The notes: generated by a model not told the origin, from the sequence alone. Positions 496 through 6,427 are shown, counted from the stretch's first letter. The stretch: 64,000 nucleotides of DNA from Candidatus Omnitrophota bacterium (GCA_043813915.1 JBDRKO010000026.1:155-64154); one strand, 5' to 3'. Program-made: numbers and translations.

Positions 496-1221
496 ATGGT
501 TGAAAACATTTTTTTATCTTTGATAATACCGACTTACAATGAAGAAACCAATATCTCGGATACGCTTGCCGATGTTTCCGGATATCTTGCGGATAAAAAT
601 TTCAACTATGAGGTTATAGTGAGCGATGACGGGTCTAAAGACGCGACGATAAAAGTGGTGGAGGGGATCAAAGAAAAACCGCGTAACTTAAAAATAATAA
701 GATCCGAAAAGAATAGAGGAAAAGGGCATGCTTTGAGATCGGCGGTGGACGCGGCTGTCGGGGAACACATTATGTTCATGGACGCGGATAGCGCGGTATC
801 CATAAGCGAACTTGATAAATTTATCCCGATATTGACAGACAATACCGATATATACATTGCTTCCAGAAGAATACCGGGGGCAAAGTTATCAATGCCCGCA
901 AACCGGAATATGCTGGGAAAAATATATATCTGCCTGGCCAATATCTTATTAGGGATAAATGTGAACGATATAAATTGCGGATTTAAAGTGTTTAAAAGAG
1001 AGGCCGCAAAAAAAGTCTTTTCCAGACAGATAATGAATGACTGGAGTTTTGACGCGGAATTAATTTTCTTATCGACTAAGTACGGATACAAAATAGGGGA
1101 AGTCCCCATAGAGTGGGTATATAAAGACACTTCGAAGGTGAGGCCTTTACGCGACGGTATAAAAAGTTTTATAAGCCTCCTGAAGATACGGGCGAATGAC
1201 CTGAGAGGGAAGTATGATTAG
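496..1221 (+). CDS. GT2 glycosyltransferase, DPM1/GtrB/ArnC-like polyprenyl-phosphate sugar synthase
   Basis: N-terminal LSLIIPTYNEE...VSDDGSKDAT (GT-A DxD region) and CGFKVF motif; ~240 aa size typical of soluble/monotopic UndP-sugar synthases. Confidence 0.7.
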   Translation: MVENIFLSLIIPTYNEETNISDTLADVSGYLADKNFNYEVIVSDDGSKDATIKVVEGIKEKPRNLKIIRSEKNRGKGHALRSAVDAAVGEHIMFMDADSAVSISELDKFIPILTDNTDIYIASRRIPGAKLSMPANRNMLGKIYICLANILLGINVNDINCGFKVFKREAAKKVFSRQIMNDWSFDAELIFLSTKYGYKIGEVPIEWVYKDTSKVRPLRDGIKSFISLLKIRANDLRGKYD

Positions 1222-1336
1222 TTAGAGTGTCAGGGTGTTATAGTGTCAAAGTGTCAGAGTGTCAGGGTATCAGAGTGTTAGAGTAAAAATTGACTCTTTG
1301 ACACTAATGAGCGAAGCGAATGATGACTCTAACTAA
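1218..1336. mobile_element. MITE-like miniature inverted-repeat element (119 bp) overlapping the stop codon of the upstream GT2 gene
   Basis: Perfect 11-bp terminal inverted repeats TTAGTTAGAGT (1218-1228) and ACTCTAACTAA (1326-1336). Inside are four 16-bp tandem repeats plus an inverted copy of the repeat unit (gactctttgacact, 1292-1305). No coding capacity. Confidence 0.4.
1224..1287. repeat. 4 x 16-bp tandem direct repeat (consensus AGAGTGTCAGGGTNTC)
   Basis: Units at 1224-1239, 1240-1255, 1256-1271 and 1272-1287, read directly from the sequence. Confidence 0.8.
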
Positions 1337-1560
1337 GCTGTGCTCTTTGCCATTGTTACGGTTCGCTGCAGGCGTATTATGGATAGAAGCCATGTACTAT
1401 GCGATTAGCAGTTGTTTAAAGGTTCGTTGTTCGTAGTCGGTAGTTTAACGGAATAGAGTTACAGTCAATACAACCCTATAAACTCAACAAACTCTATAAA
1501 CCCGACAAACTCTATGCGCCATGCTCTACGCGCTATGCAAAAAAACAAATAGGAACATAC

Positions 1561-2271
1561 ATGTACTTATCGATTATTATTCCGGCATACAATGAAGAGC
1601 AGCGTATAGGCGGCACTTTGAAGCATATGCGCGATCACCTTTCATCTAAGGACTATGAGTATGAAATAATTGTCGTCGATGACGGAAGCCGGGACAATAC
1701 AAGTTTTGCGGCCGCGGAAAGCGAATTGGGGAAAAGCGGGAAAGTAAAGGTGATCAAAAATCCCATGAATCGCGGGAAAGGATTTGCGGTAAAAAGAGGC
1801 ATCCTTGCCTCGGAAGGGAAGTATGTGCTTTTAAGCGACGCGGATATGTCAACCCCCTTGGAAGAAATAGACAAGCTTTTTGATCCAATAAAAAACGGAT
1901 TTGACGTAGCGATAGGTTCCAGAAGCATCAAAAGTTCGGATGTAAGAATAAAACAAGCGCGGTACAGGGAAATAATGGGGAAGACGTTCAACCTTTTCGT
2001 TAAAACATTGATAGTGAAAGATTTTAATGATACCCAATGCGGGTTTAAGTTATTTAAAGGCGATGTAGCGAGAGACCTCGCATATCTAATGAAGCTTGAT
2101 GGATTTTGTTTCGACGTAGAAATGCTTTATTTGGCAGGTATTATGGGCTATAAAATCGATGAAGTAGGGGTTATTTGGAACAATTCCCCTCAAAGCAAAG
2201 TTAGAGTATTTAACAGTTCCGCAAAAATGTTCATAGATCTTTTGCGTATAAAACGCTTACACAAGCAGTGA
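1561..2271 (+). CDS. GT2 glycosyltransferase, DPM1/GtrB-like polyprenyl-phosphate sugar synthase (paralog of 496-1221)
   Basis: LSIIIPAYNEEQRI...VVDDGSRDNT, CGFKLF; same architecture and length as the upstream GT2. Confidence 0.7.
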   Translation: MYLSIIIPAYNEEQRIGGTLKHMRDHLSSKDYEYEIIVVDDGSRDNTSFAAAESELGKSGKVKVIKNPMNRGKGFAVKRGILASEGKYVLLSDADMSTPLEEIDKLFDPIKNGFDVAIGSRSIKSSDVRIKQARYREIMGKTFNLFVKTLIVKDFNDTQCGFKLFKGDVARDLAYLMKLDGFCFDVEMLYLAGIMGYKIDEVGVIWNNSPQSKVRVFNSSAKMFIDLLRIKRLHKQ

Positions 2272-5151: not shown

Positions 5152-6427
5152 AGATCTCACTTTGTGGATAATCCTGGCGGTCTTTCTCAGACTGGCAGCT
5201 ATGATGATCGCTGTACACGGGGATTCCGTTTCCGTTAACTATTCTCCGAGTGAATTGGCGTACAAAGGTATTCTGGACATTTACCGCTATAAACGCGATA
5301 GTGTAGGCATGATCGGAGGATGGAGATCGTATTATCCGCCGCTTACATATTTTACGGTAGGTTTTTTTCAGTTCATTTCCAGACCCTTAAACCCCGGATT
5401 TTACGCATGGATACATGAGATATATCCTATCGGTATACGCCCATGGCTTGTTTCGAACGGGGTTTCTTTTGCTTTTTTTAAACATTTGTTTTTCATGAAA
5501 GCGCCGTATCTTTTGTTCGATACTTTTTGTCTTGCTTCTATTCTCGGATATATCGGCGATCCGCGTTCGAAAATAAGGGCTTTTAAATTATGGAGCGTTA
5601 ACCCCGTAATACTGTACGGCGTTTATATGTTCGGCCAGGCGGATATAATACCGGCCTTACTTACCGTGTTGGCTGTTCTGGCGGCAAGACGGCATAAGGG
5701 ACCGTGGGCGTTGATGCTGTTAAGCTTCGCCACGCTGTTCAAGACGTATCCCATGTTCCTTATACTGCCGCTATTGATAACGCAATCACGTTCGTTAAGG
5801 GATTACCTGAAGGGTACGGCGGCGATAGTCCTGCCGTTTTTTATTCTATTACCGTTCTATTTTTCCAGTAAATTTGCGGTCATATCCTCACTGTTCCCTA
5901 AGATCTATAGTGAAGATTCTCTCAGCGTAGATTGGATATTTCCGCTGAAGATCATATTTATGGTCCTTTACGCGTTCCTGATAGGGGTATGTATAAGGTC
6001 CAAAAAACGGGCGGATACGGAAATACCCGCTTTGAACCTGACTATGGCGGTCCTGATGCTTCTTTATGTCATATTTTTTGTTCATGTTCATTATTTTATA
6101 TGGGTAATACCTTTTCTAGTGATCGCCGTTTCTACGGGGGTGGTGTCGCCCCGGCTTTATTATGTTCAGATCGTTTGTCTTTTTATATTTAATCTGAACA
6201 GCCGTAACACGAGTACGGCATTGTTTATGCCGCTTGATCCGCAGTTCTTTTATGCGCTACCTGGATTGCCCGATCTGATGCATAATATTTCGATCAGATG
6301 GGGGGCAGTGATGTTAGCGGCAAGAATGTGTTTTGTCGTCATCTGCGTCATGATGGCTACGGACCTTTTAGGCGTAACGGCTTTTATCAAACGGCTACCG
6401 AAATGGATAGGCGGTAATGGCAGATAA
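5120..6427 (+). CDS. Polytopic integral membrane protein, GT-C-like glycosyltransferase candidate (DUF2029/PMT-like)
   Basis: 435 aa, more than 10 predicted hydrophobic helices. Directly downstream of a UndP-sugar-synthase-like GT2; no soluble-enzyme motifs. Confidence 0.35.
   Translation: MPELMEKIKIKDLTLWIILAVFLRLAAMMIAVHGDSVSVNYSPSELAYKGILDIYRYKRDSVGMIGGWRSYYPPLTYFTVGFFQFISRPLNPGFYAWIHEIYPIGIRPWLVSNGVSFAFFKHLFFMKAPYLLFDTFCLASILGYIGDPRSKIRAFKLWSVNPVILYGVYMFGQADIIPALLTVLAVLAARRHKGPWALMLLSFATLFKTYPMFLILPLLITQSRSLRDYLKGTAAIVLPFFILLPFYFSSKFAVISSLFPKIYSEDSLSVDWIFPLKIIFMVLYAFLIGVCIRSKKRADTEIPALNLTMAVLMLLYVIFFVHVHYFIWVIPFLVIAVSTGVVSPRLYYVQIVCLFIFNLNSRNTSTALFMPLDPQFFYALPGLPDLMHNISIRWGAVMLAARMCFVVICVMMATDLLGVTAFIKRLPKWIGGNGR

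What the first reader, a model, noticed from the sequence alone, without database searches (positions are those of the whole stretch)
1218..1336. MITE-like insertion with perfect terminal inverted repeats overlapping a stop codon between tandem GT2 paralogs
The 11-bp perfect inverted repeats TTAGTTAGAGT / ACTCTAACTAA bracket 119 bp. Inside are four tandem 16-bp repeats (AGAGTGTCAGGGTNTC) and an inverted copy of the unit. The left repeat supplies the TAG stop of the upstream GT2 gene. The element sits exactly between two paralogous GtrB-like genes, suggesting involvement in the duplication, or a phase/expression-modulating structured spacer.
Basis: seen in the sequence. Interest (0 to 1): 0.55.

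Follow-up and report, generated by a model that had tools for sequence, protein, structure and literature searches.

The report
Octamer-repeat hairpin, not a MITE
The supposed miniature transposon is a single-copy hairpin made of a short 8-base tandem repeat and inverted copies of its own units, sitting in a lineage-specific spacer between two sugar-transferase genes of an uncultured Omnitrophota bacterium; it is a local example of a known, poorly understood kind of bacterial intergenic repeat.

Summary
The sequence features are real. There is a perfect 11-nt inverted repeat (1218-1228 / 1326-1336), the left arm contains the TAG stop of the upstream GT2 gene, and a tandem array with inverted unit copies lies inside. 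The 119 nt fold far better than shuffles (-37.9 kcal/mol, z -4.8). The base period is 8 (AGAGTGTC x7.6), not 16, and the "TIRs" are array units facing inverted copies of themselves.

The MITE reading is not supported. I found no second copy in about 76 kb of this genome, and none in JGI metagenomes apart from the same locus. The two GT2 genes are only 35% identical, and orthologous pairs in relatives are 4-8 bp apart, so the element had no part in the duplication.

The whole 339-bp spacer is a lineage-specific gain. Both of its ends resemble a 420-bp spacer about 2 kb upstream in the same gene cluster.

Period-7/8 arrays that start at stop codons, sometimes with inverted partners, recur in spacers of related and unrelated phyla. 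This matches the known class of intergenic long simple-sequence repeats.

The likely effect (inferred, not shown) is an intercistronic RNA stem-loop that uncouples the two genes. Interest is low.

The parts
496..1221 (+). GT2a: 241-aa family-2 glycosyltransferase (polyprenyl-phosphate hexosyltransferase type). Its TAG stop is at 1219-1221.
   Evidence: ORF. NCBIfam hits are all below cut-off. A source names it 'dolichyl-phosphate beta-glucosyltransferase [Candidatus Omnitrophota bacterium]'.
1218..1228 (+). Left arm of the perfect 11-nt inverted repeat (TTAGTTAGAGT). It is octamer unit 0 plus the start of unit 1, and it contains the stop codon.
   Evidence: I5.
1224..1284 (+). Imperfect octamer tandem array, AGAGTGTC x7.6, G+T-rich. 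The stretch 1222-1289 is only 7% C.
   Evidence: TRF. Pattern enrichment. Composition.
1290..1305 (+). Two tandem inverted octamer units (TTGACTCT TTGACACT) that pair with the array to form the inner stem.
   Evidence: I2, I3; MFE structure.
1326..1336 (+). Right arm of the 11-nt inverted repeat (ACTCTAACTAA), an inverted copy of unit 0 and the start of unit 1.
   Evidence: I5.
1218..1336 (+). Long imperfect hairpin: 40 pairs on the sense strand, 6 of them G-U.
   Evidence: Sense RNA -37.9 kcal/mol, z -4.76. Antisense -28.1, z -4.91. DNA -16.1, z -3.81. Pair counts. The same hairpin forms in the 356-nt context.
1353..1380 (+). The only sigma-70-like promoter match in the spacer (TTGTTA-16-TATTAT, 9 of 12). 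A weak consensus hit.
   Evidence: 1 site found against 1.6 expected, so it is not evidence by itself.
1382..1538 (+). Right-hand module. It is paralogous to L001 510-612, the leader of the cluster's epimerase gene about 2 kb upstream of the window. Here it is interrupted by a local duplication (1411-1451) and by the 9-mer array.
   Evidence: blastn blocks of 90-100% identity, colinear; alignment. It folds no better than shuffles (z +1.3; L001 copy z +2.2).
1472..1515 (+). Period-9/18 array (AACTCTATAAACCCAACA x2.4). The stretch 1462-1516 is 5% G and 31% C. It is weakly complementary to the octamer array (71% over 24 nt).
   Evidence: (I1).
1510..1538 (+). Heptamer-pair array (GCCATGC / GCTATGC type, TRF period 14), shared with the upstream paralogous spacer.
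1561..2271 (+). GT2b: 236-aa family-2 glycosyltransferase, 35% identical to GT2a.
   Evidence: Orthologs: L092, 62% identity, and L005.

Best explanation
The 119 bp are not a transposon. They are the structured, stop-codon-abutting first third of a 339-bp spacer that this Omnitrophota lineage gained between two GT2 genes. In relatives those genes are 4-8 bp apart and probably translationally coupled.

The segment is an imperfect octamer microsatellite (AGAGTGTC, about 8 units) followed by inverted copies of its own units. The "terminal inverted repeats" are simply units pairing with their inverted copies.

Inferred origin: replication slippage together with an inverted (template-switch) duplication. 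This happened within a spacer whose two ends are copies of the spacer in front of the cluster's epimerase gene.

Inferred effect: on the operon transcript the segment forms a roughly 40-pair imperfect stem-loop that starts at the GT2a stop codon. The stem-loop would act as a 3' barrier or processing site (against exonucleases, or for RNase III or pausing). This would uncouple GT2a from GT2b, which is then served by the duplicated, unstructured leader module at 1382-1538.

Shown: the anatomy, single-copy status, lineage-specific gain, partial paralogy with the upstream spacer, and recurrence of the same architecture elsewhere.
Inferred: how it was generated, and any role of the RNA.
For: 1. The array has period 8, and the arms are array units plus inverted units.
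2. Folding is strong in isolation and in context.
3. It is single copy. There is nothing else in the window, nothing in 8.8 kb beyond it, and only the same locus in JGI metagenomes.
4. Orthologous GT2a-GT2b junctions are 8 bp (L092) and 4 bp (L005).
5. Both ends of the spacer match the 420-bp spacer L001 217-635. The first 22 nt from the stop are 17/22 identical in register. The right module is 90-100% identical in colinear blocks.
6. That paralogous spacer also has an array (AGTTACC x4.3) with a nearby inverted copy (MFE structure), although its own 111-nt stretch does not fold better than shuffles (z -0.96).
7. The same architecture with unrelated unit sequences occurs elsewhere:
   - L006 (AGTGACA x7) and L008 (AGTATCG and AAAGGAA arrays) start at the GT2a stop.
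   - Parcubacteria L046 has array plus inverted units right after the homologous GT2 stop, -29.7 kcal/mol, z -9.3.
   - Chloroflexi L060 8268-8375 has stop, array, inverted array, RBS.
8. Across 86 loci plus the window, non-coding arrays of 5-10 nt were period 7 (22) or period 8 (5, counting this locus twice). They were about 13-fold denser than in coding DNA, and half began within 9 nt of a gene end.
9. 6 of 28 arrays had a significant inverted unit copy within 120 nt.
10. This matches published work. Heptanucleotides are the commonest long simple-sequence repeats in prokaryotes and are attributed to slippage (Mrazek 2007, as summarised in PMC4679880). Inverted heptamer arrays are reported in Xanthomonas (PMC4692102).
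Against: - There is no transcript, end-mapping or expression data, so the RNA role is pure inference.
- No U-tract follows the stem and no terminator-like site was found.
- Sense and antisense z-scores are equal (-4.8 and -4.9). The 10 kcal/mol sense advantage may only reflect G+T richness, so it gives no strand evidence.
- No relative is closer than 63% amino-acid identity. Intermediate states and covariation therefore cannot be examined.
- A TA-flanked insertion model fits the junction formally (see rival 1).
- Only about 76 kb of the genome could be searched.
Confidence: 0.55

Rival explanations
1. Selectively neutral by-product. The array and its inverted copies arose by slippage and template switching in unconstrained spacer DNA. 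The hairpin has no regulatory consequence.
For: - Units differ in every spacer and every lineage.
- Spacer length at this junction ranges from 0 to 339 bp among relatives.
- The units are imperfect, 77% matches.
- Published work attributes the heptamer excess to polymerase slippage.
Against: - These genomes are very compact. Most junctions in the window are under 30 bp or overlap, so keeping 339 bp of useless DNA is somewhat unexpected.
- Arrays with inverted partners recur at stop codons in several phyla.
Confidence: 0.22
2. One reading: a non-autonomous transposon (MITE, e.g. Tc1/IS630-type with TA target duplication) inserted into the TAA stop codon of GT2a.
For: - There is a perfect 11-nt TIR.
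- The core GTTAGAGT...ACTCTAAC is flanked by TA on both sides. Removing 1221-1335 would leave GAT TAA GCT, a stop at the same codon (read directly).
- Orthologous loci lack the sequence.
Against: - No other copy of the TIR or of the array exists in the window, in 8.8 kb beyond it, or in JGI metagenomes apart from the same locus.
- The TIR is an array unit, so it is explained without transposition.
- The TA flanks are part of the palindrome (TTA...TAA) and cannot be told apart from it.
- What is missing in orthologs is the whole 339 bp, not the 119 bp.
- Architecturally identical array-plus-inverted-array hairpins with unrelated sequences occur elsewhere.
Confidence: 0.07
3. The mobile or duplicated unit is the whole spacer. 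This would be a low-copy modular intergenic cassette (comparable to pneumococcal BOX elements or ERIC) with a stop-proximal structured part and a start-proximal leader part. It is present at least twice in this gene cluster.
For: - Both ends of the 339-bp spacer match both ends of the 420-bp spacer L001 217-635, in the same order and the same position relative to stop and start codons.
- Both sites are short in relatives: about 51-57 bp and 4-8 bp.
Against: - Only two copies are known, 2.3 kb apart, so a local duplication of a regulatory region is simpler.
- The left-end similarity is short. It was significant only when the search was restricted to the stop-proximal 45 nt (0/500 shuffles), against 52/500 for the whole spacer.
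- The interiors are unrelated.
- No further copy was found in 76 kb, and the core motif was absent from viral contigs.
Confidence: 0.1
4. Either a phase-variable simple-sequence repeat (contingency locus) that changes GT2b expression by gain or loss of units, or an array of binding sites (iterons) for a DNA- or RNA-binding regulator.
For: - SSRs near surface-glycan genes are the classic setting for phase variation. Heptanucleotide repeats in a 5' UTR together with an RNase III-targeted stem drive it in Haemophilus influenzae, according to the abstract of PMC12721329.
- TAACTGA arrays were proposed as binding sites for S1, Csp or CsrA (PMC4679880).
- Arrays of the same octamer, (GTGTCARR)3 or longer, occur in six phage contigs in regions that look intergenic.
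Against: - The units are imperfect (77%), which strongly lowers slippage.
- Five assemblies show the same length. This is weak evidence, because they are near-clonal, with 0-2 mismatches over 2-4 kb.
- The array lies 277 nt upstream of the GT2b start and upstream of the only promoter-like site.
- The unit sequence is not conserved between orthologous spacers, which argues against a dedicated binding protein.
Confidence: 0.06

Closest known systems
Long simple-sequence repeats of 5-11 nt in prokaryotic intergenic DNA. Sources: Mrazek et al. 2007 (as summarised in PMC4679880), cyanobacterial STRR heptamers, TAACTGA repeats of Beggiatoaceae (PMC4679880), and GGGAATC repeats of Xanthomonas (PMC4692102).
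   Same: - Head-to-tail arrays of a 7-8-nt unit.
- Confined to spacers and imperfect.
- Length and unit vary between related genomes at the same junction.
- Occasional inverted pairs of arrays able to form stem-loops (PMC4692102).
- Function unknown.
   Different: - The unit here is 8 nt rather than the dominant 7.
- The published families reuse one unit at tens to hundreds of sites per genome. Here every spacer has its own unit and this unit is single-copy in 76 kb.
- The array starts at a stop codon rather than just upstream of a start codon, as TAACTGA arrays do.
MITEs that sit between genes, such as Neisseria Correia elements (from my own knowledge, not checked in a paper here).
   Same: - Size of about 100-150 bp.
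- Terminal inverted repeat and TA flanks.
- Intergenic position.
- Ability to form an RNA hairpin that could be cut by RNase III.
   Different: - Single copy.
- The arms are derived from an internal microsatellite.
- No related IS was seen.
- The sequence missing from orthologs is three times longer than the element.
REP/BIME and pneumococcal BOX elements: intercistronic palindromic or modular repeats that stabilise upstream mRNA (from my own knowledge).
   Same: - Intercistronic stem-loop directly after a stop codon inside a gene cluster.
- Modular build with a tandemly repeated middle part (boxB-like).
- Proposed effect on segmental mRNA stability.
   Different: - Those families have tens to hundreds of conserved copies per genome. 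Here there is one copy of the hairpin and two copies of the flanking modules.
- No conserved family sequence.
- Function untested.
Heptanucleotide SSR in the 5' UTR of Haemophilus influenzae phase-variable genes, acting together with an RNase III-targeted RNA element (abstract of PMC12721329).
   Same: - A 7-8-nt tandem repeat combined with a stem-loop in untranslated RNA next to a surface-structure gene.
   Different: - The repeats here are imperfect.
- No copy-number variation was seen.
- The array lies upstream of the candidate promoter rather than between promoter and start codon.

Membership tests
MITE (miniature inverted-repeat transposable element) | Terminal inverted repeats | tested here: met
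   An 11-nt perfect inverted repeat. However, the arms are units of the internal octamer array, so the feature does not discriminate.
MITE (miniature inverted-repeat transposable element) | Multiple dispersed copies in the genome | tested here: not met
   No second copy in the 64-kb window, in 3.1 kb upstream (L003), or in 8.8 kb downstream. The JGI metagenome scan found only the same locus plus one chance hit. The complete genome could not be searched.
MITE (miniature inverted-repeat transposable element) | Target-site duplication flanking the TIRs | tested here: inconclusive
   TA lies on both sides of GTTAGAGT...ACTCTAAC. It is part of the palindrome TTA...TAA, and no close empty site exists to confirm a duplication.
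MITE (miniature inverted-repeat transposable element) | Empty site in orthologous loci differing by exactly the element | tested here: not met
   Orthologous junctions in L092 and L005 lack the whole 339-bp spacer, not just the 119 bp. The nearest relative is only 63% identical in protein.
MITE (miniature inverted-repeat transposable element) | A parent IS/transposase with matching ends | not testable with these tools
   The TIR sequence is absent from the rest of the window. The whole genome was not available.
Intergenic long simple-sequence repeat (5-11-nt unit) | Head-to-tail copies of a 5-11-nt unit, longer than chance | tested here: met
   TRF: period 8, 7.6 copies, score 73. The pattern occurs 6 times against 0.13 expected.
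Intergenic long simple-sequence repeat (5-11-nt unit) | Non-coding location, with a unit length that is not a multiple of 3 | tested here: met
   The array lies in spacer 1222-1560. In 86 loci plus the window, non-coding arrays were period 7 or 8 only, and about 13-fold denser than in coding DNA.
Intergenic long simple-sequence repeat (5-11-nt unit) | Length or sequence turnover between related genomes at the same junction | tested here: met
   At the GT2a 3' junction the spacer is 0, 4, 8, 17, 52, 65, 123 or 339 bp in different genomes. Different units are used wherever arrays exist.
Phase-variable contingency locus | Repeat-number polymorphism within or between populations | tested here: inconclusive
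   Five assemblies are identical, but they are near-clonal.
Intrinsic (Rho-independent) terminator | G+C-rich stem followed by a U-tract | tested here: not met
   No terminator-like site in 1100-1700. The stem is A/U- and G-U-rich. The downstream sequence is GCTGTGCTCTTTGCC.
Integron attC site | Inverse core RYYYAAC at the gene-proximal end and core GTTRRRY at the distal end | tested here: not met
   Here the order is GTTAGAG ... CTCTAAC, the reverse, on either strand. The flanking genes are a conserved syntenic pair, not cassettes. The consensus is from my own knowledge.
Described RNA family (Rfam 15) | Match at or near the gathering score | tested here: not met
   No hit at gathering thresholds in the window. 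Only two chance-level hits (E 2.6 and 4.6) in 1150-1620.

The most novel reading that the evidence does not exclude
Arrays of 7-8-nt units that start at a stop codon and pair with inverted partner arrays may be a convergently evolving, selected class of intercistronic RNA stem-loops. Such "array hairpins" would split or tune operons, especially glycan clusters, in compact genomes of Omnitrophota, Patescibacteria, Chloroflexi and Acidobacteriota. In this organism a two-copy modular cassette (hairpin part plus leader part) would have converted a translationally coupled GT2 pair into two separately controlled units.
Probability: 0.1. Interest if true: 0.55.

Novelty: new member of a known kind. 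Interest (0 to 1): 0.2.

Why it matters
On its own it matters little. It removes a candidate mobile element and shows how a microsatellite next to inverted copies of its own units can look like a MITE with perfect terminal repeats. That is a useful caution for repeat annotation in metagenome-assembled genomes.

The wider pattern seen on the way is a possible handle on the long-unexplained excess of heptamer repeats in bacterial spacers. Non-coding arrays were almost exclusively period 7 or 8. They often began at stop codons and sometimes had inverted partners, across several phyla. This rests on a small, non-random sample of loci.

Tried and rejected
It returned only GT2s of other phyla at 40% identity or less. 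It was useless for orthology, and I used those loci only as a background sample.
2. Two orthologs, P0011 and P0003, gave gene maps but no DNA.
3. Rfam found nothing at gathering thresholds or at permissive thresholds. There are no tRNA or tmRNA genes in the window.
4. I considered an intrinsic terminator and rejected it.
5. I considered an integron attC site and rejected it because the core-site order is reversed and the genes are syntenic.
6. I considered REP/RAYT-type elements and rejected them because the element is single copy.
7. A promoter made from the TTGACT / TTGACA motifs inside the inverted units: I read the sequence and found no acceptable -10 hexamer at 16-18 nt spacing.
8. Strand of action from G-U pairs: the sense strand is 10 kcal/mol more stable with 6 G-U pairs, but z-scores are equal on both strands, so this is uninformative.
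9. Small ORFs in the spacer are all 38 aa or shorter. Periods of 7 and 8 are not multiples of 3, so I did not pursue them.
10. The second GT2 of L006 and L008 first looked like the orthologous pair. It is only 27-35% identical to GT2b, so those loci show analogous rather than orthologous junctions.
11. The right-module core motif was absent from viral contigs.

Full report
**Setting.** The window comes from an uncultured Candidatus Omnitrophota bacterium. GT2a (496..1221) is named as such by NCBI. The same locus is present 100% identically in four other assemblies: ENA ERZ27247128, Logan SRR10568895, JGI 3300014656 and GCA_018817765.1. The window is a tightly packed glycan-biosynthesis cluster in which most gene junctions overlap or are under 30 bp. 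The finding lies in the 339-bp spacer 1222-1560 between GT2a and GT2b (1561..2271).

**Observation.**
- The 11-nt perfect inverted repeat 1218-1228 / 1326-1336 is real.
- The TAG stop (1219-1221) lies in the left arm.
- The internal tandem repeat has a base period of 8 (AGAGTGTC, 7.6 copies, 77% matches, 1224-1284).
- Read in register from 1218, the segment is nine octamers: TTAGTTAG AGTGTCAG GGTGTTAT AGTGTCAA AGTGTCAG AGTGTCAG GGTATCAG AGTGTTAG AGTAAAAA.
- These are followed by two inverted units (TTGACTCT TTGACACT, 1290-1305), 16 unrelated nt, and an inverted copy of the first unit and a half (1324-1336).
- The "TIR" is therefore a repeat unit facing its own inverted copy.
- A single perfect 11-nt inverted repeat within 120 nt is not unusual (6 observed, 2.1 expected per window). 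Two such pairs are nested here, and the octamer pattern is 6 against 0.13 expected.
- The 119 nt fold to -37.9 kcal/mol (z -4.76), and the same hairpin forms in the full-spacer context.
- The antisense strand folds to -28.1 kcal/mol (z -4.91). The sense strand has 40 pairs, 6 of them G-U, against 30 pairs and no G-U on the antisense strand. The z-scores are equal, so this does not identify the acting strand.

**Is it a MITE?**
- No other copy of the TIR or of the array exists in the window.
- None exists in 3.1 kb upstream (L003) or in 8.8 kb downstream (L100).
- A scan of 241 million JGI metagenome records for TTAGTTAGAGT-N80-110-ACTCTAACTAA returned the same locus (L091 = L003) and one chance hit in an unrelated AT-rich (AGTTAGTTAG)n contig.
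- A TA-duplication model fits formally. Removing 1221-1335 leaves GAT TAA GCT, so the stop stays at the same codon. The TA is part of the palindrome, however, and there is no close empty site.

**Orthologous loci.**
- GT2a and GT2b are 35% identical, so they are old paralogs.
- The nearest GT2a homolog in 5.8 billion proteins is 63% identical.
- Two relatives carry the true orthologous pair. L092 has GT2a at 58% and GT2b at 62% identity with an 8-bp junction. L005 has GT2a at 63% and a GT2b ortholog with one in-frame stop, with a 4-bp junction.
- The pair therefore predates the spacer, and all 339 bp are a gain in this lineage.
- Elsewhere the gene after GT2a differs: another GT2 at 27-35% identity in L006 and L008, a radical-SAM gene, a lipase or a PMT-type gene.
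- The junction in those loci is 0-123 bp. Where it exceeds 60 bp it is made of heptamer arrays that begin at the stop codon: L006 (AGTGACA)x7, and L008 (AGTATCG)x4 then (AAAGGAA)x8.

**The rest of the spacer.**
- The right part (1382-1538) is paralogous to L001 510-612, the region just upstream of the cluster's 329-aa epimerase gene, about 2 kb before the window starts.
- The shared colinear blocks are GATAGAAGCCATG, CTATGCGATTAGCAGTT, AGTTTAAnGGAATAGAGTnnCAGTCAATACAAC and ATGCGCCATGCTCTnnGCGCTATGC, at 90-100% identity.
- The first 22 nt from the stop codon also match in register (17 of 22). This was exceeded by 0 of 500 shuffles in the local test but by 52 of 500 when the whole spacers were compared.
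- That 420-bp spacer has its own arrays: CAGAGAGT x2 at the stop, AGTTACC x4.3, TTACGAA x3.9, and GCCATGC / CGCTATG x4.
- It also has an inverted copy of the AGTTACC array, and the two pair in the MFE structure. The 111-nt stretch around them does not fold better than shuffles, however (z -0.96).
- In relatives the same junction is 51-57 bp.
- The right module folds no better than shuffles (z +1.3 and +2.2), as expected for an open leader.
- The only promoter-like match (1353-1380) lies just upstream of the right module, but it is a weak consensus hit.

**Generality.** I ran TRF over 86 non-redundant loci plus the window, using crude greedy ORF calls.
- Of the arrays with period 5-10, at least 3 copies and score at least 40, 27 lay in non-coding DNA. 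Of these, 22 had period 7 and 5 had period 8 (this locus is counted twice). None had period 5, 6, 9 or 10.
- Density was 0.358 per kb in non-coding DNA against 0.027 per kb in coding DNA.
- Half of the arrays began within 9 nt of a gene end.
- They occur in Acidobacteriota, Chloroflexi, Patescibacteria and Armatimonadota as well as Omnitrophota.
- 6 of 28 arrays have a significant inverted copy of their units within 120 nt.
- One example lies directly after the stop of the homologous GT2 in a Parcubacteria genome (L046: -29.7 kcal/mol, z -9.3). Another is a stop, array, inverted array, RBS arrangement in Chloroflexi L060.
- Arrays of the same octamer, (GTGTCARR)3 or longer, occur in six unrelated phage contigs, so the unit is not specific to this locus.

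**Literature.**
- Mrazek et al. 2007 found heptanucleotides to be the most abundant long simple-sequence repeats in most prokaryotic genomes and proposed polymerase slippage as the cause (as summarised in PMC4679880).
- TAACTGA arrays in Beggiatoaceae were proposed as post-transcriptional regulator sites.
- GGGAATC arrays in Xanthomonas include inverted pairs, and they vary in length between close relatives at the same junction (PMC4692102).
- None of these has an established function.

**Interpretation.**
- Shown: the segment is a single-copy, octamer-array-derived palindrome at the stop-codon end of a lineage-specific spacer. Both ends of that spacer are copies of another spacer in the same cluster.
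- Inferred: it arose by slippage plus inverted duplication. Its most likely effect is an RNA stem-loop that ends or protects the GT2a-containing transcript segment, while the duplicated leader module serves GT2b. This would turn a translationally coupled pair into two separately expressed units.
- I rate the combined statement at 0.55, and the functional half taken alone at about 0.3.
- Rivals are a neutral by-product (0.22), a two-copy modular cassette as the real repeated unit (0.10), a MITE (0.07), and phase variation or iterons (0.06).

**Verdict.** This is a real sequence feature that was misread as a transposon. It is a new member of a known, functionally unexplained kind (intergenic 7-8-nt tandem arrays). 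Interest is low.

Noticed in passing
window 1382-1538 and L001 510-612 (about 1.7-2.1 kb upstream of window base 1): A module of about 100-160 bp occurs twice in the same glycan cluster, each time ending 20-25 nt before a start codon (GT2b and the 329-aa epimerase). Its blocks are GATAGAAGCCATG ... CTATGCGATTAGCAGTT ... GGAATAGAGTnnCAGTCAATACAAC ... GCCATGC/GCTATGC heptamers. It may be a duplicated promoter or leader. It folds worse than shuffles.
   Followed up: partly
window 1462-1516: The period-9 array region is 5% G, 31% C and 44% A, and it is predicted to be unstructured. It lies just upstream of the GT2b start. By composition it looks like a Rho-utilisation (rut) site. This is a recollection of rut features, not a test.
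   Followed up: no
86 loci plus the window; examples L014 4776-4837, L060 4779-4807, L046 4732-4761, L081 1746-1802: Non-coding short tandem arrays across several phyla were exclusively period 7 (22) or period 8 (5, this locus counted twice). About half start within 9 nt of a gene end. In L014, L060 and L006 the unit itself contains or supplies the stop codon.
   Followed up: partly
L046 4728-4800 (Parcubacteria GW2011_GWD2_38_12): Directly after the stop of a GT2 homologous to GT2a lies an (ACATTTG)x4 array, a small hairpin, and inverted units. Together they form a 70-nt stem-loop (-29.7 kcal/mol, z -9.3). The architecture matches the finding, but the sequence is unrelated.
   Followed up: partly
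L094 838-859, L095 13375-13396, L096 12-57, L097 945-1014, L098 1574-1595, L099 684-705 (IMG/VR contigs): Arrays of the same octamer (GGGTGTCA / AGAGTGTC, 3-5 or more units) occur in six unrelated viral contigs. Some lie next to palindromes or to other octamer arrays (L098 also has GACCTTCT x3). Their role there is unknown; iterons are one possibility.
   Followed up: no
L002 versus L001/L003/L004, window-relative coordinates from about -1584 onward, inside the 329-aa epimerase gene: Assemblies that are otherwise identical differ by 76-78 mismatches clustered in one stretch of the epimerase gene. This suggests a recombined patch between strains. Separately, L001 and L003 differ from the window at 1944-1945.
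   Followed up: no
L005 5770-6477 (GCA_024277375.1): The GT2b ortholog of this relative has an in-frame TAA at codon 14 (MFISIIIPAYNEE*). It is either a pseudogene or a sequencing error. The gene caller started the gene downstream, at 5875.
   Followed up: partly
L005-L008, L092, L093 gene maps: The block epimerase - DegT aminotransferase - GT2a is conserved among Omnitrophota relatives. The gene after GT2a varies (GT2b, another GT2, radical SAM, GDSL lipase, PMT). The GT2a 3' junction is therefore a synteny break point within the cluster.
   Followed up: partly
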